From an uncultured Verrucomicrobiae bacterium (GTDB lineage: Bacteria; Verrucomicrobiota; Verrucomicrobiia; Chthoniobacterales; JAFAMB01), in NCBI GenBank assembly GCA_963762565.1, contig CAVXLD010000001.1, positions 352,001 through 416,000 on the forward strand: a stretch of 64,000 nucleotides of DNA, written 5' to 3'. Both the position numbers and the translations under genes were made by a program. Under the pieces are notes generated by a model, which saw nothing but the letters and a program-made list of their open reading frames with translations, made no database searches and had not been told where the DNA came from. How positions within the stretch are numbered: position 1 is the first letter of the stretch; each line of letters opens with the position of its first letter. Below are positions 5,903 to 64,000 of the stretch, piece after piece.

Positions 5903-7036
5903 ATGGAGAGCGTCGCTTCCAGACTGGCCGCAGCGCAAAAATTCGGTGTGCTCCTTTTTTGCATCGGCCTCCTGGTAGTAGGAGCCAGTTTGTTCCTGGC
6001 GCCAACTCACGCTTTTCCCTCCTATTTGATCGGGTTTCTCTTTTGGATGGGACTCACCCTGGGATGCTTCCCGATTCTGATGATCTATCATCTCGTCGGC
6101 GGAATTTGGGCGGTTCCGGTCCGAAAGTTTTTGGAGGCGGGGATAAGTACCCTGCCCCTGATGGCGTTCTTGCTAATCCCGCTCCTATTCGGCTTCGGTT
6201 ACTTGTATCGTTGGACTCAACCGGCGGGATTGCGGACCGATCTCTTGCTTGAGCACAAGGCCGTTTACCTCAACCCCCCGGCCTTTCTCGTACGAGCCTG
6301 TCTATTCTTCTGTATCTGGGAAACCTTATCGTTTCTTTTATTGCGTTGGTCCCGACGCCTGGTTGCAACGGCTGAGCCAACCGTCGCTCTAACTCTCCGA
6401 AAAATCAGTGCTCCCGGGCTCATTCTATTCGCACTAGCAACATCCTTCTCGGCGGTCGATTGGGTGATGTCACTAGAGCCCGACTGGTATTCCAGCATAT
6501 TTCCTCTGATCATCATCATGGGACAAATCCTCTCGGCGCTGGCATTAAGCGTCGTTCTTTCGAGAGTGCTGTTAACTTCCGGGGAGGAGGCAACGCCGGA
6601 TCAGCTGAACCAACTCGGCGATTTGCTCTTAGCGTTTGTCATGCTGTGGGCCTACATGAGCATCTCGCAAATCATTATTATCTACGCAGGGAACCTACCT
6701 CACGAGGTCAGTTGGTATCTGCACCGGATGCGCGGCGGATGGCTTGCTTTGAGCTGGATCATCGCTCTCTTTGCCTTTGGCGTTCCCTTCTTTCTTTTGC
6801 TCTTTCGCCAATTAAAACGAGCGCCGGTCTGGCTCTGTAGCATCGCCGGCAGCCTGCTGATTATGCACGCGGTTTGTGTGTTCTGGTATGTTGCCCCGAC
6901 TTTCCGCACCTCAATCTCGCTAGACTGGTGCGATCCCTTTGCCTTCTGCGGGATTGGGGGAGCCTGGGTCGTCGTTTTTTGTCGCCGATTAACCCGTGAC
7001 CCCTGGTCAAAAGAGCCGAAGGAACAATCCGCCTAA
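5903..7036 (+). CDS. actF: ACIII membrane subunit ActF
   Basis: Polytopic membrane protein with DWVMSLEPDWYSSIF motif; operon position. Confidence 0.85.
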   Translation: MESVASRLAAAQKFGVLLFCIGLLVVGASLFLAPTHAFPSYLIGFLFWMGLTLGCFPILMIYHLVGGIWAVPVRKFLEAGISTLPLMAFLLIPLLFGFGYLYRWTQPAGLRTDLLLEHKAVYLNPPAFLVRACLFFCIWETLSFLLLRWSRRLVATAEPTVALTLRKISAPGLILFALATSFSAVDWVMSLEPDWYSSIFPLIIIMGQILSALALSVVLSRVLLTSGEEATPDQLNQLGDLLLAFVMLWAYMSISQIIIIYAGNLPHEVSWYLHRMRGGWLALSWIIALFAFGVPFFLLLFRQLKRAPVWLCSIAGSLLIMHAVCVFWYVAPTFRTSISLDWCDPFAFCGIGGAWVVVFCRRLTRDPWSKEPKEQSA

Positions 7037-29295: not shown

Positions 29296-29325
29296 CCTGT
29301 CGCGCCATAGCGAAGCGGCGGCGGA
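29296..29325. repeat. 30-bp palindromic REP-like unit
   Basis: CCTGTCGCGCCATAGCGAAGCGGCGGCGGA; 28/30 identical to the reverse complement of 62491-62520. Confidence 0.75.
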
Positions 29326-37364: not shown

Positions 37365-37780
37365 GGTCTTTTCAGGTATGCGGGTTCGACGAAAGCAATT
37401 AGCGCACACTCTTGTTGAAGCCGATTGCGAATCGACGAAACAGGGGGGCCGAAATGATTCATTGTAGGAATTGTTTCCTTTGGACTACGAGCCTCCGAAT
37501 TTGTCTCACGTCACTCATTAAGCAGGCCTGATGCCCAAATCCGCTCCCAGCCGGCCTAACCCCGTTCGCGTTGCAATTCGCCTCGGGAAATGAAGATCAA
37601 CTTTCTTTTACCGCTTATAATTTAGGCCTGAGCAGATGGAAGAAAGTTTCAAAATCGGAATCCAATTGTCCCAGTCTTGGAACGCCCGAGAAACGAGCGA
37701 CAGCCGGTAAGGCGATCCGCGACGATGAGGGGATCTACGAAGGATTCGCCGGCGGCAAGCCGGCCATATGCCTTCCTAGG

Positions 37781-38073
37781 TAGTGTCCTGTCCCATAAAT
37801 AACGTGGCTTTCGCCGGCGGTCAGTTGGCTGTTTTTCAAGGCGCGAGCGAAGCGCCCCTATCTGGTTCATACGGGTCGAGCGAGCAACGCGGAAAAACAG
37901 CCAACTGGCCACGGCCGGAGGGTTGCGATGAAAATGGGCCGGCGGCTGCGTTGCTCGTCGGTTACGTATCGATCAAGATATGCGCCCTCTACCGCCAGTC
38001 CGGCTCGGACCGCCTTGCCGGCGGCCCATTTTGATCGCAACGAAAGCCACGTTATTTATGGGACAGGACACTA
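37781..38073. mobile_element. MITE with perfect 33-bp terminal inverted repeats
   Basis: TAGTGTCCTGTCCCATAAATAACGTGGCTTTCG at 37781-37813, exact reverse complement at 38041-38073; internal hairpins; no transposase. Confidence 0.85.
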
Positions 38074-38119
38074 GCTTTCGCTTTGCATCCTTGCGGTTTG
38101 GCGTGAGGCTTTTCGTACT

Positions 38120-43280: not shown

Positions 43281-43399
43281 TTGAAAAGTGCTATGGCAAC
43301 TCCGGAAGATTACTCCCCTTGCTTGCGACCTGAAAGCCGAGACGCAGGCTAGTTGATCCGTTGACTAGCCGTTCCCGGACCGAGACCAGTGAGACGCAC

Positions 43400-43834
43400 T
43401 AATGTCCTGTCCCATAAATAACGTGGCTTTCGTCCGGCAGGTTCCCATGCGCGTTAACATAAGGGCGCAGGTGTTGGCCGGCCCCTGACCGGGAGGGCGC
43501 GCGTCCTCGCGCGCTGCGAAGACGTGCCGAGCTTACAGTCGTATTCCGATCACTCGATCGACAAACACGCTCGGCTTCAGGAACGACGGATCGCGGGGAC
43601 GCGATCCCTCCCAGCGCCGGGTCCGGCACGTGCCTCGCAGCTGCCGGACCCATCCCGGGGAGGGATCGCGTCCCCGCGATCCGTTGTTCTCGAAGCCCAC
43701 GACAGACCCGATCCAGCGTTAGGCTATATCCACAATTATCGACCTGTTCCCGGCGCGCGGGGACGCGCGCCCTCCCCTCGTCAGGTGCCCATCACACAAT
43801 TTCCTTATGTTGACGCCTATGGGCAGCTGCCGGA
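43400..43834. repeat. Composite nested inverted-repeat element (orphan MITE end + second IR pair + four REP-like copies)
   Basis: 43400-43432 is 32/33 identical to the MITE TIR at 37781; IR pair 43433-43464/43803-43834; GGGAGGG..CGCGTCC.CGCG copies at about 43491, 43589, 43658, 43753 in alternating orientation. Confidence 0.8.
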
Positions 43835-47622: not shown

Positions 47623-47625
47623 CTC

Positions 47626-47900
47626 GTGGAGCGCTGCTTGCAAGGCCGAAGCGGTCGGCACTGTGGAGCGCGCCTTGCTTGCAAGGCCGAAGCGGTCGGC
47701 ACCGTGGAGCGCGCCTTGCTTGCAAGGCCGAAGCGGTCGGCACCGTGGAGCGCGCCCTGCTTGCAAGGCCGAAGCGGTCGGCACCGTGGAGCGCGCCCTG
47801 TTTGCAAGGCCGAAGCGGTCGGCACCGTGGAGCGCGCCTTGCTTGCAAGGCCGAAGCGGTCGGCACCGTGGAGCGCGCCCTGCTTGCAAGGCCGAAGCGG
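47626..47900. repeat. 41-bp tandem repeat array (7 cores, 6 full periods)
   Basis: TG(C/T)TTGCAAGGCCGAAGCGG at 47635, 47676, 47717, 47758, 47799, 47840, 47881; no spacers. Confidence 0.95.
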
Positions 47901-57585: not shown

Positions 57586-59727
57586 TCAACCTGCCGATAA
57601 ACTAGAACCAACCTCGCGAAACTTGCACGCTTCCTCGAGTGAGATTACACCGGCAGCGGCTTCGCGTACGGCTTTTTCGAACAGCGAAGCTTCACCGCGA
57701 CGTTCCAATATCCGCTGCAAATGCAAGGCGGGGGCGCGTTCTTGAATGGCGATTTTTACTTCATCGTCAACAATAAGGGCCTCGAAGATCGCTTTTCGAC
57801 CACTAACCCCTGTCTTACGGCAGAAATCGCATTTCCGGCCGCGCCGGACCGAGTTCACCCCGGTTAACCATTCGGGTTTGATTCCGAGGCGCACGAGCCG
57901 TTCTTCCGGCGGCAACGGTTCCTCTATAGCACACCGGGGACAAAGTTTTTTAACTAACCGTTGTGAGATGGCTAGCTTCAAGCTGTCGGCAACCATAAAA
58001 GGTTGCGCCCGAAACAAGAATAATCGGTTAGGAACTTCGCAGGCCGAGTTAGTGTGCAGCGTCGAAATCGCTCGATGCCCGGAAGAAGATAACCGCATGA
58101 GGGCCTCGACACTTTCTTCATCCCGGATCTCCCCCATCATCACCACATCAGGCGCCTGACGCAGAATTCCCCGCGCCCACATGGCAAAACTGTAAGGGCC
58201 GTCGTCGTCAACCTGCGTTTGACTGATATTCTCTAGAACCACTTCGATTGGAGATTCTGCGGTAAGGACGTTGTTTTTGACCGCGTCTACGGCACGCAGA
58301 ATACTATAAATAGTGGTCGTTTTGCCGGAACCGGTCGGTCCGCATAGAATTAAGAGTCCATGATCTCCCTCCATCAGATCCTGGATCGCGGCTAGGTAAT
58401 GGGTGGGCATGCCAAGCTCGGCCAAGGTTTTCACGCTCCGTTCGTCACGCTGCAACCGTAAGACGGCTTGCTCCCCTTGCGCCTGATAGGACGTATTGAC
58501 CCGAAAATCGTAACGCTGGTCACCGATCTTTATTGGGAAGGTTCCGTCTTGCGGCAAGCGGACATATTGGATTTCTAGGCCGGAGATCACTTTGATTCGG
58601 GAGATAACTTGCTTGGCGATGTGGCCGGGGAAATCGCCTTCTTGGTCGAACCAGTCTCCATCAACTTTGTATCGAACCCGCAATTGTTGCGGGAATTCTT
58701 GGAACATGATGTCGCTCGATCCTAACTCGACGCCCTTATAGAGGATCGAATGGACGAACTTAATGACGGCCTCCTCATCGTGGCGATAGCGGTGACTGGA
58801 TTGCTGGAGACTATCGGCGTGAATTACTTCTAATCGTTCGTTCTTCCTATCGGCGTGATCTAGCGCGGACATGGTCCGCAGGATTCCCGAGGCACTGATG
58901 GCCATGCTTTCCGACGTGGTAATAAACCTCTCCAGGGCTTCGCCATCAGCCAGGACCTGCTCAACCGTGAACCGGTGGCGCAGAGCGCCCTCAATCTCGG
59001 CTTTAACATTGGGAGGCAATAACTTCTCGACCGCTAACGTCAGACGCCGCCGCGCGCAGTAGACCGGGCAAGCTGAATAGCGTCTTTGCAAGGTTGGACT
59101 GAACCAATGATTCACCTTACCGGAAGGCGAGACTTCATCCAGGTTAATCCAAGGAGTCCCGCCATTGGCGATATCCGTTGCCAGTCTAACATTCGATCCG
59201 TCGAGGTCCATGTTGTCCGTGACCGAATTCAGCACCTGCCTCAATTGATCGGGTTCACACCAGACGGCAGTCAGTTTGGGGACACCCCAAAACACATTTA
59301 AAAACTGAAACTCCGGCTGTTTCAGTAAGGTATCCAGGCCCGGAATCGAAGTAACGATCGTCACCTGATTCGGCGTTCGAGCAACTGGAAGCAGTGGAAC
59401 CGCCAAGGCTGGCATTCTGATTCCGTTTGGAGAGAACCGTAACAACGTGGGGTCGAACGGCGTCAACGCACTATCACGAATCAATTTCGATAGAACCGAG
59501 CCCAGCTCCAGGTCGAAGTCTTTGCAATATCGTTCCACAAGTGAATCCGCCTGCCAAATCACCATCGGATTGGCAGCATCGAAGGATTCGATGTGCTCCA
59601 ACAGAAAACGAAGCTCGCCTTCACGAACCCCTAGAAGTCGAGCTACATGAAAATGGAGCAGGTGATCTATAGTTTGAAGCGGCTCAGATTGTCGCCATCC
59701 GTTAGTCCCTGCTACTATAGAGCTCAT
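57586..59727 (-). CDS. GspE/PilB family secretion ATPase
   Basis: GPTGSGKTT, LRQAPDVVMMGEIRD, TLHTN, CxxC...CxxC. Confidence 0.92.
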   Translation of the reverse strand: MSSIVAGTNGWRQSEPLQTIDHLLHFHVARLLGVREGELRFLLEHIESFDAANPMVIWQADSLVERYCKDFDLELGSVLSKLIRDSALTPFDPTLLRFSPNGIRMPALAVPLLPVARTPNQVTIVTSIPGLDTLLKQPEFQFLNVFWGVPKLTAVWCEPDQLRQVLNSVTDNMDLDGSNVRLATDIANGGTPWINLDEVSPSGKVNHWFSPTLQRRYSACPVYCARRRLTLAVEKLLPPNVKAEIEGALRHRFTVEQVLADGEALERFITTSESMAISASGILRTMSALDHADRKNERLEVIHADSLQQSSHRYRHDEEAVIKFVHSILYKGVELGSSDIMFQEFPQQLRVRYKVDGDWFDQEGDFPGHIAKQVISRIKVISGLEIQYVRLPQDGTFPIKIGDQRYDFRVNTSYQAQGEQAVLRLQRDERSVKTLAELGMPTHYLAAIQDLMEGDHGLLILCGPTGSGKTTTIYSILRAVDAVKNNVLTAESPIEVVLENISQTQVDDDGPYSFAMWARGILRQAPDVVMMGEIRDEESVEALMRLSSSGHRAISTLHTNSACEVPNRLFLFRAQPFMVADSLKLAISQRLVKKLCPRCAIEEPLPPEERLVRLGIKPEWLTGVNSVRRGRKCDFCRKTGVSGRKAIFEALIVDDEVKIAIQERAPALHLQRILERRGEASLFEKAVREAAAGVISLEEACKFREVGSSLSAG

Positions 59728-59732
59728 TCTAT

Positions 59733-61476
59733 TTAGATATTGCCGAACACGTCACTACCCCAGTCTGCCACGACCGTCTGTAAGTTCGCTGGAGTGATAA
59801 TTGAGGCAGCCGGTGAATCGTCGCCAAGGTTGAAATCGCCGGCAATAATGATCGGATGCGGGCTCACAATCGAAAGAGAACGAGTTAGTGCTTGCGCCCC
59901 TCTGATTAAGATGACTGCGTTCGGCAACGGATTACCGGCTGGATCCTGAACCACTAGAAAAACGGACCCAAGCTGAGTGACGCCTAAACGCGCATAATCC
60001 AAAGCCAAAATAGTTTGAGAGGGATTCTGGCTATTCGGGGCAGCAGCGAACGGAACGGTTTGCTGGGCGGCAGTCGATTGGCTCTCTGAAGGCGCTTTAT
60101 TCGCCATTGGATAGGCTAGGTGTGCGCCGCCAACATTACCTACCACTGTTACCAAGCATCCCTTCTTCCCATTGGGAGCAGTGATGGGAATATCCGGTCG
60201 CGCCACTACCAACACCTCGCATTGGGTCTTCAGCAGCGACAGGTTGAGTCCATTCGAAGTGGCCGAGCCACGGTTACCAGCTCCATAGACACTGTTTAGG
60301 GCGGCAGAATCAACCGGGAGAACGTTACTGGTAACGACCCTGGAATCCAGCGAGGTTCTGGCATCAGGCAGGAAGTTCGCGTCTTGTGTGTCCGTGGAGA
60401 GCTTAACCGATGGGCCATTATCGGATGGATCCTTGATCTGAAGCGAGCCCCCGGCAAAATCGACGTTTTGACCGGCAATGACGGCAAAATCGGAAGAGAA
60501 ATTTCCGGTTATGGAAAGGTTGGATTCAGTGAAGACCCTTCCGATATCCTGACTAAAAACCGCATTTCCGAGAGTAACCGGGTCACCAGCAGAGAAAACG
60601 GTGAACTGCGACACCGGAATTTCTCGAACCGCTATCTGTGGACGATCGTTAACCGTGAGGTTTGGCAGTCTTACACTTGGGACAGTGGATAGCGCCGTGA
60701 TATCCACGTCGATCAGGGTGACCCGGGCATGCGCTTGGCCAAACAAATCTTGGCTGGCGAGCGCAGGCAGTTGCACGACCTCCGTAGAATTAGCGAATGG
60801 TTGGACTTGCAGGACCTCGCTCCCATCGCCGTCCGTTTTGGAACTCAGGCTTAGCGAAATACCGGAGAGAGTCTCCGAGCGATTTAGGCCGGCCAACTTG
60901 ACTTCACCGGTTGCAATTAGCTCGCTTCGGATCGCTGACTCCAGGCTCAAAAGGGCCTGCTCGGTCGAAATACGCAATCCATCTTGATTAAGGTTACGGG
61001 CGGTGCGAGCCCGTTCGTTGTCCACGAAGGTGAGATAAGATGCGCCGATTAGCCCGGCGATCACCACAAGCACCAAAACGTAGACTAGTACCGAACCCGA
61101 TGCGCCGTGCTCTTCGGGTTCAATTCTAGAAAGAGATCTGTTGATCGACAGAAGCTGTTCTTGACCACGAAGTGGTCCGACAGAACAGCCCAGCGCTTTA
61201 GCCCTGGGTAACCGCCCGTGACATGCCTCGCCCTGAAAGGGCGGCCGAACGGGCCTTACGCGTTGGCGTCGTGATTTGTTGCTCTCGGCAAGCCAACTTG
61301 CCAAAGGCCGTGCACCGTAGTCATCGCGATATATTGGATCTAAAGAGCACGTCGATCGGCCGCCCCTGCAGGGCGTTTTATTGACGGATGCTTTCCCAGG
61401 GCTAAAGCCCTGCTGTTCTATAAAGCCATTCCATGGCCGCCACACCGTAAATTTGGAATAAGGTAGCCTGACTCAT
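59733..61476 (-). CDS. PilX/GspK-like large minor pilin; 5' region contains a repeat doublet and a 2-bp frameshift
   Basis: G|SVLVYVLVLVVIAGLIG class III-like signal; ATG 61476 coupled to upstream stop is in frame only if 2 bp are restored at 61412; alternative GTG at 61445. Confidence 0.65.
61163..61438. repeat. REP-doublet (REPIN-like) inverted repeat
   Basis: Arm 61163-61248 (AGAACAGCCCAGCGCTTTAGCCCTGGG...CGCCCTGAAAGGGCGGCCGA) inverted against arm 61356-61438. Confidence 0.8.
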
Positions 61477-62042
61477 TGCATCTGTAGCGGTACACCGAAA
61501 ACATTGAACGGGACCTGATCAACGGTGGTGGTCACGTCCCACTGAGCCTGAACGATGCCGGAGCCCGAATTGAATATCGGCTTATTATTGTTCCGGTCAT
61601 TGTTAGTCTGGTCATTAGTAGAGGTTCGCGACGCTCCCGGAAACACTCGTTTTTGAACCGGGCCATTCCCCGTTTGCTGGTACTCGATCTGGGCGCCATC
61701 GAAATGAAACTCGGCAGTCCCGTTTTGATTAACGCAAACGAGCCAATCTCCGGATGAATTTCCGGGAGGAAGCGGACTGCTGGGATTGCTAGGAGGAGCC
61801 GTTTCATAAATTTGGAAATCAACAGCGCTCTTAATGGAATCGTCCATGATTTCCGCTAGAGCTTCATGCTGGGCCTCTAAAGAGGTTGCTTGTAGAACAG
61901 CTGCTTGGCGCTGCATGGCTGTAAGCAGGAAGCCGGTGGCGGCGCTGACCACCAGAAAAACGCCCAGCATCGCAGCAAGCATCTCAGCCAGCGTAAACCC
62001 GGATTGGCCGGAGTATGGTGTTGCAGGTTCCACAAAGATCAA
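61473..62042 (-). CDS. Prepilin/pseudopilin (PilW/GspJ-like)
   Basis: G|FTLAEMLAA N-methylation motif. Confidence 0.8.
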   Translation of the reverse strand: MIFVEPATPYSGQSGFTLAEMLAAMLGVFLVVSAATGFLLTAMQRQAAVLQATSLEAQHEALAEIMDDSIKSAVDFQIYETAPPSNPSSPLPPGNSSGDWLVCVNQNGTAEFHFDGAQIEYQQTGNGPVQKRVFPGASRTSTNDQTNNDRNNNKPIFNSGSGIVQAQWDVTTTVDQVPFNVFGVPLQMQ

Positions 62043-62794
62043 GGATTCAGCACTACCGTCTTCGTCATCTGTCGAGAGGCTTGGGTTCCGTAGCTTGGAA
62101 CGGTATAGGTTAGAACCAACTCACTTGTCCCCGGTGCGGTTCCGTTTGTCATCGAGACCGAAAACGGAATCAGATTCCCAAACGAGCCTGTGCCGGTCTG
62201 ACCGGCGATTAACCGGGGATGATAGAGGTAGCCAGTTATCGGGGTTTGCTGTGAAGACTCGTTTACTGTGAAAGGTCGAGAGTCCGGCGGCCCAAACGTC
62301 TGTAGTTCATAGTATTGGCGGAGGATGCGCTCAGCCCGGCTATCCAGGCGAGTTAAGAGTTCCTGGTAATCAGCCAACCGCCACGCGGCGGTAATTCCGA
62401 CGGCGGAAAGGGTTAGAATGAACAGGCTGGCTAAAACCTCGACGAGCGAGAAAGCGGCTTGAAGGCGAATCCGCGGAGCGTTGCCTCGCTTCCGCCTCCG
62501 CTTCGCTACGGCGCGACAGGTGCGAGGCCGTGGTGAACAGAGAAACTTAAGTAGGTAGAGCCCTTCATCGTAGTGCGCCCTGTCGTCTACGGGTTGCGAC
62601 GAGTTGGGGGCCAGCCGTGCCCGCGAGATCGCGTCACGTTGGACGTCCTCGATCGGCGCGATACAGAGCGTAGACCGTCGAATGGCGCGAGTGATGATAA
62701 GACGCTGCTCACCACGGCCTCGCAAGCGAGGCAGCGCTCCACGGTTCCGACCGAGGCAGAGGCGCTCAATCCTTGTCGGGCAAGTCCAACTCAT
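62039..62794 (-). CDS. Prepilin/pseudopilin (PilV/GspI-like) with abnormally long repeat-derived leader
   Basis: A|FSLVEVLAS motif; nearest in-frame ATG is 62794, upstream of the repeat element. Confidence 0.7.
   Translation of the reverse strand: MSWTCPTRIERLCLGRNRGALPRLRGRGEQRLIITRAIRRSTLCIAPIEDVQRDAISRARLAPNSSQPVDDRAHYDEGLYLLKFLCSPRPRTCRAVAKRRRKRGNAPRIRLQAAFSLVEVLASLFILTLSAVGITAAWRLADYQELLTRLDSRAERILRQYYELQTFGPPDSRPFTVNESSQQTPITGYLYHPRLIAGQTGTGSFGNLIPFSVSMTNGTAPGTSELVLTYTVPSYGTQASRQMTKTVVLNP
62471..62744. repeat. REP-doublet inverted repeat with a nested 30-bp insertion
   Basis: 40-bp arms 62705-62744 and 62471-62540, the latter interrupted by 62491-62520. Confidence 0.85.
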
Positions 62795-63995
62795 CCTTTT
62801 GAGTCTTTCGGTTCTGCTTGTCAGGGCCATTCAGCGGAACGGGCGGCGGCTCCCCTGGTAGATTGGATTGGTCCTGCAGACTTCGTCTTTCGCTTTCACC
62901 CAACCTGTCGAACCGGTGATCGTCCGCGGGTATAATCGTCGGACAAACAATTACGATAAGATTTGTCCGCTGCTTTGAGTAAGATCTTGTTCTGAAAACA
63001 TATCCGAGAAGAGGAATTTTGGAAAGTCCGGGAACCGCATTTGCAGTGAAAGTCACGCTATCCTGCAGAATCCCACCAATCACGGCGGCTTCACCGCTTC
63101 GCACGGTCACATCCGCAGTCGTGCTTCGCGTAGAGACGATCGGTATCTGAGTGCTGGTACCAGGTTGGGCCGCGCTGGTGCCTGAGATCGTAGACAGGGC
63201 CGGGTTTAGATTAAGGTCTATCAGCCCTCCTGCCAAAATCCGAGCCACGATATCAACCGTCAGACCAGTCGTAAATGTATATGGTACAGTGCTAGGTCCG
63301 TAGGCCTGGGTACCAGGCGTCTGTAAGAAAATCGTCTGCTTGGTGTCAGAACGTATGGTGACCGGCATCCCGCTCTTTGCTACCGTCATGGGCGAATTGT
63401 TAGTTCTAACCCGGCCCTTAGCCTTCAAGGCTTGCAAAGTGACTTGAACATTGGACATGTTCAGCACCAATCCATTTGTGAAAAAGCCGCCGCCATGGGC
63501 GTTGAGCGCGCCGGTTATGGTCTGAAGGTTAGATGCCGGTGGAATTCCGGCACTTCCGGTGAGCGAAAACGTGGCGCCTTGCCCGGGCTGTAACCCGAGA
63601 GTTTGGCTCCAGTCCAACCCTCCCCCTATGGAGTTAGTATCTGTGACTTCAACAATGTAGGTCTTGATGAGAATCTGCTCCTCCGCAACATCGAGTCGCT
63701 GCAGCTCAGTACTAATTAGGTCATGCTGCTCCGGGGTGGCACGAACAACCAAAGAGTTAGTGCTTCGCTCCACGAACACGGCACTTTGACCACTTTTTTC
63801 GAAACCACCCACCGACAATGGAGCATCAAAAGGTACGCCAGGTTCATAGCGGGGCTGGCTTTGATCCGAACTAGTTCCAGATGTCCCCAGAGCGTCGGGT
63901 GTCACCGTCGTATTTTCCGGTTTCGGATAGGCCGGAAAGTTGCTTTGAGCCGGTATCACTTTTATCCCTAAATAATTTGCGATTGGTTGAAGCAA
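62766..63995 (-). CDS. Secretin (GspD/PilQ family), 5'-truncated by window edge
   Basis: ERSTNSLVVR, AAVIGGIL, VPGLSKIPLLGYVFR, NLIVIVCP. Confidence 0.9.
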   Translation of the reverse strand: MLQPIANYLGIKVIPAQSNFPAYPKPENTTVTPDALGTSGTSSDQSQPRYEPGVPFDAPLSVGGFEKSGQSAVFVERSTNSLVVRATPEQHDLISTELQRLDVAEEQILIKTYIVEVTDTNSIGGGLDWSQTLGLQPGQGATFSLTGSAGIPPASNLQTITGALNAHGGGFFTNGLVLNMSNVQVTLQALKAKGRVRTNNSPMTVAKSGMPVTIRSDTKQTIFLQTPGTQAYGPSTVPYTFTTGLTVDIVARILAGGLIDLNLNPALSTISGTSAAQPGTSTQIPIVSTRSTTADVTVRSGEAAVIGGILQDSVTFTANAVPGLSKIPLLGYVFRTRSYSKQRTNLIVIVCPTIIPADDHRFDRLGESERRSLQDQSNLPGEPPPVPLNGPDKQNRKTQKDELDLPDKD

Positions 63996-64000
63996 AAGCT

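What the first reader, a model, noticed from the sequence alone, without database searches (positions are those of the whole stretch)
62445..62794. Palindromic mobile element translated in-frame inside a prepilin leader peptide
Seen: between the secretin end and the A|FSLVE cleavage motif lies a ~274-bp inverted-repeat doublet. The frame is open across it, and there is no in-frame ATG/GTG/TTG between the element and the cleavage motif, so the leader would be ~113 aa. Known: class III leaders are normally short and are removed by prepilin peptidase. Inference: the disposable leader is a safe haven for REP-type elements (compare Rickettsia palindromic elements in coding regions), and the long hairpin could tune pilin translation.
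Basis: partly seen in the sequence, partly recalled or inferred. Interest (0 to 1): 0.75.

Follow-up and report, generated by a model that had tools for sequence, protein, structure and literature searches.

The report
Palindromic repeat inside pilin leader peptide
A small palindromic repeat element lies in frame within the stretch of a pilus-protein gene that encodes the cut-off leader, and related soil bacteria show that this leader has become a long, fast-changing landing place for such repeats.

Summary
On the minus strand a 288-nt inverted-repeat element (62466-62753) lies between the secretin stop (62766-62768) and the QAA|FSLVEV motif (F codon 62450-62452). The pilin frame is the only one of six frames without stops. 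No ATG/GTG/TTG lies between the element and the motif.

Two corrections apply. An in-frame TTG (62725) sits inside the element. An in-frame ATT (62470) sits at its edge, 6 codons before F.

Comparison supports in-frame translation.
- Distant Chthoniobacterales relatives (4 of 4 loci) have a 9-aa leader whose ATG overlaps the secretin stop.
- All 6 close loci carry 82-316-nt insertions. Each keeps the same phase and has no in-frame stop and no nearby canonical start. No near-cognate codon is conserved.
- The mature part is under purifying selection (dN/dS about 0.1, dS about 1).
- 94 of 116 protein clusters carry called leaders of 13-112 aa that are Arg-rich and highly variable.

The element belongs to a dispersed family. 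Its arms resemble a 41-nt REP-like intergenic array at 47623-47900, and 8 unrelated ORFs elsewhere encode the whole element.

Translation itself is inferred, not shown, and ATT initiation in this genome is not excluded. This is a new variant of in-frame palindromic insertions of the Rickettsia RPE type.

The parts
62766..63998 (-). 3' part of the secretin gene (cut by the window end); stop TGA at 62768-62766
   Evidence: ORF. Pfam Secretin E 2.2e-31. NCBIfam GspD-like match below its cut-off.
62792..62794 (-). ATG embedded in the secretin 3' end, 26 nt before the secretin stop. It is the most likely start of the pilin precursor (MSWTCPTRI...). A second in-frame ATG lies at 62830-62828.
   Evidence: The same ATG sits at the same 26-nt offset in L001-L004. 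It corresponds to the ancestral ATG that overlaps the secretin stop in L006-L009. 49 of 94 long-leader protein clusters contain it.
62453..62794 (-). Inferred leader-coding region: 114 codons, 24 Arg, net charge +18
   Evidence: Residues 1-112 are predicted unstructured, pLDDT below 50.
62705..62753 (.). Secretin-proximal arm: REP-like unit with a 7-bp GC-rich hairpin (62717-62732). The in-frame TTG 62725-62723 lies in its loop.
   Evidence: Similar to the 41-nt units of the array at 47623-47900.
62541..62704 (.). 164-nt core between the arms
   Evidence: No second DNA copy in the 173 kb held. Its peptide recurs in 8 ORFs of other contexts and in orthologous leaders.
62466..62540 (.). Pilin-proximal arm: an inverted copy of the unit with a 30-nt insertion in the hairpin loop (62491-62520)
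   Evidence: The 30-nt piece has a second copy at 29296-29325, 93% over 30 nt. Close relatives lack it as an in-frame 10-codon gap.
62468..62470 (-). In-frame ATT, 6 codons before F, at the outer edge of the inverted repeat. It is the candidate non-canonical start of the rival explanation.
   Evidence: The Pfam N_methyl match begins one residue later, profile position 2. Not conserved in L001-L005.
62039..62452 (-). Mature pilin-like protein: 137 aa (FSLVEV...VVLNP) plus the stop codon. The stop overlaps the TTG start of the next prepilin-like gene.
   Evidence: The model has helix 9-59 plus a 4-stranded sheet, pLDDT 85.7. dN/dS 0.10-0.11.

Best explanation
The pilin-like gene downstream of the secretin gene is translated from a canonical start that lies upstream of, or within, the repeat. 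The most likely start is the ATG at 62794, embedded in the last codons of the secretin gene. This is the old, translationally coupled start of the gene. TTG 62725 or ATG 62830 are possible alternatives.

A REP/MITE-like palindromic element of about 288 nt was inserted just downstream of the secretin stop, which is the usual landing place of such repeats. Because pilin and secretin overlapped, the insertion fell inside the leader-coding codons.

Only insertions and later indels that keep the frame open survive. The element is therefore read as a 91-126-aa, Arg-rich, unstructured leader. The leader stays in the cytoplasm. Prepilin peptidase removes it after the Ala at -1, so its content is nearly neutral.

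Shown: the anatomy, the conserved frame and phase, the loss of any proximal canonical start, purifying selection on the mature part, and the dispersed nature of the repeat.

Inferred: the actual start codon, translation of the element, and cleavage.
For: 1. Ancestral state. In 4 of 4 distant loci (L006-L009, 45-47% identity) the gap from secretin stop to F is 19 nt. An ATG 9 codons before F overlaps the secretin stop, giving a leader of the MNNCRHSRG|F type.

2. Derived state. The window and L001-L005 have gaps of 313, 97, 316, 82, 82 and 142 nt.
- 10 of 10 loci keep (F - stop) = 1 mod 3.
- 6 of 6 derived loci have 0 stops in the pilin frame. The other same-strand frames have 4/2, 1/0, 2/3, 0/0, 0/0 and 2/2 stops.
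- In the window and L002 the pilin frame is the only open frame of six.
- Chance of openness from dinucleotide shuffles: 0.083, 0.58, 0.086, 0.58 and 0.235 for the five distinct spacers.

3. Start codons. 0 of 6 derived loci have a canonical start within 12 codons of F. The nearest lie 91, 42, 43, 18, 18 and 51 codons upstream. In L001 and L005 the only canonical candidates are ATGs embedded in the secretin 3' end. Near-cognate codons within 20 codons of F are ATT -6 (window), ACG -17 (L001), CTG -16 (L005) and none in L002 and L003, so none is conserved.

4. The gene is alive. dN/dS is 0.10-0.11 with dS 1.0-1.2 between the window and L001-L004. Neutral sites are saturated, so openness is not simply inherited.

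5. Proteins (120 clusters).
- 116 of 120 have the motif.
- 94 of 116 have called leaders longer than 12 aa, ranging from 13 to 112.
- 49 of 94 contain the secretin-embedded ATG, at 23 different distances from F (19-112 codons).
- Only 4 of 120 are called from inside the mature part.

6. Indels between near-identical relatives are whole codons: gaps of 14, 3 and 10 residues against P0001 and P0003.

7. The leader diverges faster than the mature part, for example 76% against 98% for P0005 and 45-60% against 77-83% for others.

8. Control. Gene 3 of the same operon keeps a proximal ATG in 66 of 80 relatives. In L002 an insertion before gene 3 carries in-frame stops.

9. No promoter-like or terminator-like site lies in 62000-63000.

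10. Literature. Leaders end in Gly or Ala, vary in length, stay cytoplasmic and are cut at the cytoplasmic face (PMC10191384, passages read).
Against: - No expression, proteomic or ribosome data exist.
- This genome has an in-frame ATT at -6 that would give a textbook 6-aa leader. The Pfam N_methyl match starts right after it.
- No clear Shine-Dalgarno sequence precedes ATG 62794 (by eye).
- Conservation of that ATG is confounded, because it lies in conserved Asp-Asp/Glu codons of the secretin.
- The protein-cluster counts are biased. Gene callers need a canonical start, so loci with a blocked frame would be called short or not at all.
- The unbiased DNA set is only 6 loci with 5 distinct spacers, and these share ancestry.
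- The element is also open in this frame in 8 ORFs of other contexts. Part of the openness may therefore be a property of the element rather than of selection at this locus.
- Five of the six frames of the hairpin unit are stop-free (read from the sequence).
- Leaders of about 100 aa are far beyond those described: up to 18 aa for type IVa and about 15-30 aa for type IVb (PMC4471445, passages). Processing of such leaders is not shown.
- No prepilin peptidase gene lies in the window.
Confidence: 0.68

Rival explanations
1. The element is an ordinary intergenic repeat in the untranslated spacer between secretin and pilin. In this genome the pilin starts at the near-cognate ATT 62470, giving a normal 6-aa leader (M)RLQAA|F. 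The open frame across the element is a by-product of GC-rich, intrinsically stop-poor repeat sequence.
For: - ATT is in frame at -6.
- The Pfam N_methyl profile aligns from the next residue.
- The same Ile is present in the closest relatives P0001-P0005.
- Gene 3 of the same operon also lacks its ancestral ATG, having ATC at 61145, and has an ATT at 61124 near the expected start. Near-cognate starts might therefore be used in this organism.
- The element family is open in this frame elsewhere.
- The chance of openness for this one spacer is 0.083, not negligible.
Against: - The residue at that position is F, P, R, L, H or V in relatives.
- L002 and L003 have no near-cognate codon within 20 codons of F, yet their genes are under purifying selection.
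- Phase is kept in 10 of 10 loci, and all 6 derived spacers are open.
- The ATT lies at the edge of the inverted repeat, so it arrived with the element.
- ATT is a very poor initiator in the bacteria studied (recalled, not checked here).
Confidence: 0.15
2. The long N-terminal extension is translated but is not a disposable leader. It is either not cleaved, with Ala at -1 and a very long leader leaving the protein as a bitopic membrane protein with an Arg-rich cytoplasmic tail. Or the RNA hairpin or peptide has a regulatory role, for example setting the pilin-to-secretin ratio.
For: - The arms are better conserved than the core in the leader alignment.
- The L003 and L004 spacers are identical over 82 of 82 nt, although synonymous divergence in the mature part is 0.24. 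This hints at constraint or repeat homogenisation.
- The hairpin is predicted to be stable.
- All called leaders have net charge 0 or above, mean +9.7.
Against: - Leader length and content turn over between near-identical mature proteins, for example 37, 43 and 81 aa on branches of 0.01-0.04.
- The leader is predicted unstructured.
- Ala at -1 is a normal cleavage residue (PMC10191384) and predates the insertions. Short-leader relatives P0026, P0050 and P0086 also end in Ala.
- Glu at +5 and the hydrophobic stretch are invariant.
Confidence: 0.1
3. In this genome the gene has been silenced by the insertion and is a recent pseudogene. The open frame is a remnant.
For: There is no canonical start near the cleavage site and no expression data.
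Against: - The mature sequence is intact and 98-100% identical in five independently assembled relatives that carry the same element.
- dN/dS is about 0.1 across the clade in which all loci carry insertions.
- The 114-codon frame is open while the five other frames carry 2-5 stops.
Confidence: 0.05

Closest known systems
Rickettsia palindromic elements (RPEs): palindromic repeats inserted in frame in protein-coding genes (Ogata et al. 2000, as summarised in PMC10969869, passages read)
   Same: A palindromic, non-autonomous repeat of about 150-300 nt with one open frame, found inside a functional ORF as a translational fusion. Its peptide recurs at other loci.
   Different: No sequence relation, and a different phylum (Verrucomicrobiota, Chthoniobacterales). 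The insertion lies in the cleavable class III leader rather than in the mature protein. The site shows repeated, varying insertions across a clade.
REP / REPIN / BIME elements, including intragenic REPs (PMC3733652, abstract and passages; PMC3337134, abstract in a search listing)
   Same: Short GC-rich hairpin units that sit just downstream of stop codons, form tandem arrays (47623-47900) and form inverted doublets. REPs inside genes have been described.
   Different: No GTAG or CGTC tag was established. The doublet encloses a 164-nt core, longer than typical REPIN spacers. No RAYT gene lies in the window. Placement inside a signal or leader peptide did not appear in the papers I saw.
MITEs that carry ORFs and fuse in frame with host genes (ERIC, BOX and others; PMC10969869)
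   Same: Terminal inverted repeats, about 290 nt, non-coding for a transposase, dispersed copies and in-frame fusions.
   Different: Target-site duplication and a parent IS were not identified. Copies elsewhere were seen only through translated ORFs.
Long class III leaders: type IVb pilins at about 15-30 aa and some type IVa at up to 18 aa (PMC4471445); a 26-aa archaellin leader called unusually long (PMC12448462)
   Same: A hydrophilic, positively charged cytoplasmic leader ending in Gly or Ala, followed by F-S-L-V-E and a hydrophobic helix.
   Different: Inferred lengths of 18 to more than 110 aa, hypervariable between close relatives, and built from repeat DNA.

Membership tests
Type 4 pilin / class III signal peptide (prepilin) | Leader ends in Gly or Ala, followed by about 20 hydrophobic residues, often with Glu at +5 | tested here: met
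   ...QAA|FSLVEVLASLFILTLSAVGITAAW. F, S, L and E are invariant in 30 sequences. Criterion from PMC10191384.
Type 4 pilin / class III signal peptide (prepilin) | Match to the curated N-terminal methylation motif model | tested here: inconclusive
   Pfam N_methyl gives 18.7 bits against a cut-off of 21.2, E 0.0012. NCBIfam gives no hit.
Type 4 pilin / class III signal peptide (prepilin) | Lollipop fold: a long N-terminal helix packed on a beta-sheet | tested here: inconclusive
   The model has helix 9-59 plus 4 strands, pLDDT 85.7. Foldseek against PDB gives no match at E <= 0.001; pseudopilins appear only weakly at ranks 3, 13 and 47. A PDB sequence search gives nothing below E 0.3.
Type 4 pilin / class III signal peptide (prepilin) | Encoded with type 4 filament machinery | tested here: met
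   Secretin, a second prepilin-like gene, a PilX-like gene and a GspE/PilB-type ATPase are adjacent. The same order is found in L001-L009.
Type 4 pilin / class III signal peptide (prepilin) | Short hydrophilic leader (below about 30 aa) | tested here: not met
   With any canonical start the leader is 91-126 aa here. It would be 6 aa only if ATT 62470 initiates.
Type 4 pilin / class III signal peptide (prepilin) | Cleavage by a prepilin peptidase present in the genome | not testable with these tools
   No Peptidase_A24 among 53 window ORFs scanned (48, 5). The rest of the genome is not available.
REP / REPIN | Short imperfect palindromes in many copies, mostly just downstream of genes, often as arrays or inverted doublets | tested here: met
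   Hairpin units at 62705-62753 and 62466-62540. A related 41-nt array starts right after a stop codon at 47623 between convergent genes. One further copy lies in L002 at 6512-6546. Copy number in the whole genome is unknown.
REP / REPIN | Associated RAYT transposase and its GTAG or CGTC tag | not testable with these tools
   No transposase domain among 53 window ORFs. No tag is evident by eye. The genome is not available.
MITE | Terminal inverted repeats, size 100-400 bp, no transposase, dispersed copies | tested here: met
   Arms of 29 nt at 83% and 20 nt at 95%, span 288 nt. 8 of 9 hits of the leader peptide are ORFs without the pilin motif that encode arm-core-arm.
MITE | Target-site duplication and a parent IS with the same ends | not tested
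   The flanks show no convincing duplication by eye. No empty site of exactly this element is in the DNA held.
RPE-like coding palindromes | Inserted in frame in a functional gene and translated | tested here: inconclusive
   In-frame insertion and a functional gene are supported. Translation was not observed.

The most novel reading that the evidence does not exclude
In a widespread clade of soil Verrucomicrobiota (Chthoniobacterales), the cleavable class III leader of one pilin-like protein has become a recurrent, selection-filtered landing pad for REP/MITE-type selfish DNA. The result is by far the longest and most variable prepilin leaders known, 18 to more than 110 aa, all translated from the ancestral start codon embedded in the secretin gene and discarded by prepilin peptidase. 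Cleaved leaders would then be a general safe haven in which mobile repeats persist inside coding DNA. The resulting RNA hairpins may set the secretin-to-pilin expression ratio.
Probability: 0.5. Interest if true: 0.72.

Novelty: new variant of a known kind. Interest (0 to 1): 0.6.

Why it matters
If the leader is translated, two things follow.

First, prepilin peptidases and the SRP/Sec route would have to accept leaders three to four times longer than any described. That widens the rules used to recognise type 4 pilins, since tools that cap leader length would miss these genes.

Second, a cleaved leader would be a place where selfish palindromic DNA can live inside a gene at almost no cost. 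This extends the Rickettsia RPE idea to a new niche and a new phylum.

There is also a practical point. Genes whose overlapped start lies in the upstream gene can look start-less or be mis-annotated once repeats are inserted. The organisms concerned are abundant, uncultured soil bacteria.

Tried and rejected
- Rfam: no family at gathering score in the whole window. Only two chance-level hits (E 1.1 and 2.7) in 62300-62900. No known RNA family.
- Promoter and terminator scan of 62000-63000: none found. The hairpin is not a recognisable intrinsic terminator.
- Naming the pilin subtype: NCBIfam gave nothing, a PDB sequence search gave nothing below E 0.3, and Foldseek against PDB gave nothing at E <= 0.001. 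The subtype is left open.
- A second DNA copy of the 164-nt core: none in the 173 kb held. Copies elsewhere were seen only as translated ORFs.
- I suspected by eye that the insertion in L002 resembles the palindromic cluster at 43491-43786. blastn-short did not report it, so I dropped the idea.
- A secretin-pilin fusion by frameshift was considered because the phase is conserved. I rejected it as biologically implausible and unnecessary, since an in-phase ATG is present.
- The antisense ORFs 62573..62935(+) and 62604..62861(+) were considered. They overlap the secretin end, and nothing supports them.
- Literature searches (listings and passages only) turned up no report of a repeat element inside a prepilin leader. 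One search failed on term format and was not repeated.
- Not checked: metagenome contigs and viral contigs (closed), the rest of the source genome, and the 'longer' and 'shorter' protein length classes for the pilin.

Full report
**What is there.**

The finding lies on the minus strand at the head of a type 4 filament operon:
- secretin, 62766..63998, cut by the window end;
- a pilin-like ORF, 62039..62830;
- a second prepilin-like ORF, 61473..62042;
- a PilX-like membrane protein, 59733..61445;
- a GspE/PilB-type ATPase, 57586..59727.

The rest of the window is ordinary chromosome: alternative complex III, cytochrome oxidase, dehydrogenases, an ABC sugar transporter and a TonB receptor. It holds no prepilin peptidase and no transposase among 53 ORFs scanned.

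The pilin-like ORF holds ...RIRLQAA|FSLVEVLASLFILTLSAVGITAAW, with Glu at +5. Pfam N_methyl matches at 18.7 bits, just under its 21.2 cut-off. A model of the short form shows a long N-terminal helix on a four-stranded sheet (pLDDT 85.7). No solved structure matches it significantly.

**The repeat.**

Between the secretin stop (62768-62766) and the F codon (62452-62450) lie two inverted copies of a hairpin-bearing unit, 62705-62753 and 62466-62540, around a 164-nt core.
- The left copy has a 30-nt insertion in its hairpin loop. That piece has a second copy at 29296-29325.
- The pattern is far above chance: 2 matches against 0.02 expected, and 2 against 0.04.
- The RNA is predicted to fold into one long hairpin (-164.6 kcal/mol, z -3.78).
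- No Rfam family matches.
- No promoter-like or terminator-like site is found.

**Is it a mobile or dispersed element?**

The arms resemble the 41-nt units of a tandem array at 47623-47900. That array begins right after the stop codon of an ABC permease gene and lies between convergent genes. Its hairpin stem differs from the one here by a change on both sides that keeps the pair. Another unit lies in L002 at 6512-6546.

The 164-nt core has no second DNA copy in the 173 kb I held. A search of 1.84 billion representative proteins with the 114-aa leader gave 9 hits. Eight of them are ORFs without the pilin motif that encode arm-core-arm at 42-71% identity, one of them with the loop insertion.

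So the whole doublet is a member of a dispersed MITE/REPIN-like family with one open frame. I could not establish a target-site duplication, a tag, or a transposase.

**Start codons.**

In frame, upstream of F, the only canonical starts are ATG 62830, ATG 62794 (both inside the secretin 3' end) and TTG 62725 (in the loop of the secretin-proximal hairpin). None lies between the element and the motif. An ATT at 62470, six codons before F, sits at the outer edge of the inverted repeat. The Pfam motif match begins one residue after it.

**Comparative evidence from DNA.**

Four distant loci (45-47% identity):
- They show what I take as the ancestral state.
- The gap from secretin stop to F is 19 nt.
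- An ATG nine codons before F overlaps the secretin stop.
- The leader is of the MNNCRHSRG|F type.

Five closer loci (64-80% identity) and the window:
- They have gaps of 97, 316, 82, 82, 142 and 313 nt.
- In 10 of 10 loci the phase between secretin stop and F is the same.
- In 6 of 6 derived loci the pilin frame has no stop. The other frames carry stops in the longer spacers.
- In the window and in L002 the pilin frame is the only open frame of six.
- Dinucleotide shuffles give chances of openness of 0.083, 0.58, 0.086, 0.58 and 0.235 for the five distinct spacers.
- In the window and L001-L004 an ATG sits exactly 26 nt before the secretin stop, in the conserved Asp-Asp/Glu codons. In L005 it sits 11 nt before.
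- None of the six has a canonical start within 12 codons of F. In L001 and L005 the ATGs embedded in the secretin 3' end are the only canonical candidates.
- No near-cognate codon is conserved near F.

The mature part is under strong purifying selection, with dN/dS 0.10-0.11 at dS 1.0-1.2. The gene is therefore in use throughout the clade, and neutral DNA would have been scrambled since the lineages split.

**Comparative evidence from proteins.**

The search returned 120 related clusters.
- 116 have the motif.
- 94 of those have called leaders of 13-112 aa.
- 49 of the 94 contain the secretin-embedded ATG, at 23 different distances from F.
- 7 start at the hairpin-loop codon and 4 start in another frame of the same hairpin.
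- 4 of 120 are called from inside the mature part.
- Leaders are 19% Arg, with mean net charge +9.7 and never negative.
- The residue at -1 is Ala in 76 and Gly in 18 of the long forms. Short-leader relatives also use Ala in 7 of 22 cases, so Ala predates the insertions.

A FastTree of 106 mature sequences was built. I left out 4 clusters without the motif and 11 with a truncated mature part. Resolution is low. The tree needs at least 6 changes between short and long leaders. It places leaders of quite different length and content on near-identical mature proteins.

In an alignment of 16 precursors that share this element, gaps are whole codons by construction, so they add no independent evidence. 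The arms are better kept than the core. The leader diverges faster than the mature part, at 45-76% against 77-98%. The leader is predicted unstructured, though the model is of low confidence overall.

These protein counts are biased, because gene callers need a canonical start. I use them as support only.

**An internal control.**

Gene 3 of the same operon keeps a proximal ATG in 66 of 80 relatives with a recognisable membrane segment; 14 of 80 are called longer. In L002 an insertion before gene 3 carries in-frame stops, and the gene keeps its own GTG. Insertions upstream of a start codon are therefore not kept open. At the pilin they are.

**Mechanism.**

REP-type repeats tend to sit just downstream of coding regions (PMC3733652, abstract and passages). 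Here the pilin start overlapped the secretin stop, so "downstream of the secretin" meant "inside the leader codons".

The leader stays in the cytoplasm and is cut at the cytoplasmic face after a Gly or Ala (PMC10191384, passages). Extra residues there should therefore cost little, provided they keep the frame open, stay hydrophilic and stay positively charged.

I therefore read the element as translated from the old start and discarded with the leader (confidence 0.68). What is shown is the anatomy, phase, openness, loss of proximal starts, selection on the mature part, and dispersal of the repeat. What is inferred is the start used, translation, and cleavage.

**Rivals.**

- ATT 62470 may initiate in this genome (0.15). 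It fits a textbook leader. Gene 3 here has also lost its ATG, having ATC at 61145. But the position is not conserved, and relatives lack any such codon.
- The extension may be translated but uncleaved or regulatory (0.10).
- The gene may be a recent pseudogene (0.05).

**Comparison and novelty.**

Palindromic repeats in frame within genes are known:
- Rickettsia RPEs and ORF-bearing MITEs (PMC10969869, passages);
- intragenic REPs (PMC3733652).

Leaders described so far reach about 18 aa (type IVa) or 15-30 aa (type IVb) (PMC4471445). A 26-aa archaellin leader was called unusually long (PMC12448462).

My six completed literature searches showed no repeat element in a prepilin leader. I rate this as a new variant of a known kind, with interest 0.6. 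The metagenome and viral collections and the rest of the genome stayed unchecked.

Noticed in passing
window 61050-61472 (minus strand), gene 59733..61445: Gene 3 (PilX-like) shows a parallel case. The proximal ATG of relatives (SMSASRPRIK...) is ATC at 61145 here (SINRSLSRIE...). The nearest canonical starts are TTG 61304 and GTG 61445. The frame is open from the previous gene's stop through another inverted-repeat element (arms 61191-61219 / 61384-61412). The closest relative, P0121 (97% identity, 581 aa), shares this. An in-frame ATT lies at 61124.
   Followed up: partly
window 47623-47900: A tandem array of about seven 41-nt hairpin units starts right after the stop of an ABC permease gene, between convergent genes. 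The units resemble the arms of the element in the finding. The stem differs by a change on both sides that keeps the pair.
   Followed up: partly
window 37778-38076 and 43399-43433: A second MITE-like element has 36-nt terminal inverted repeats, 97% complementary, with 227 nt between them. A third copy of the same end lies at 43399-43433.
   Followed up: no
window 43491-43786: A cluster of GC-rich palindromes, with 61-nt arms at 43573-43633 / 43637-43697 (85% complementary) and related repeats nearby, lies upstream of a periplasmic binding protein gene.
   Followed up: no
L003 7396-7477 and L004 9934-10015: The 82-nt secretin-pilin spacers of two MAGs are identical (82 of 82), while synonymous divergence in the adjoining mature pilin is 0.24. 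This suggests constraint or repeat homogenisation.
   Followed up: partly
L004 10016: The residue after the cleavage site is Val (VSLVEV) instead of the otherwise invariant Phe.
   Followed up: no
window 29296-29325: A second copy (93% over 30 nt) of the 30-nt piece that is inserted in the hairpin loop of the pilin-proximal arm. It lies in an intergenic stretch.
   Followed up: partly
window 62039-62042: The stop codon of the pilin-like gene overlaps the TTG start of the next prepilin-like gene. This fits tight translational coupling along the operon.
   Followed up: no
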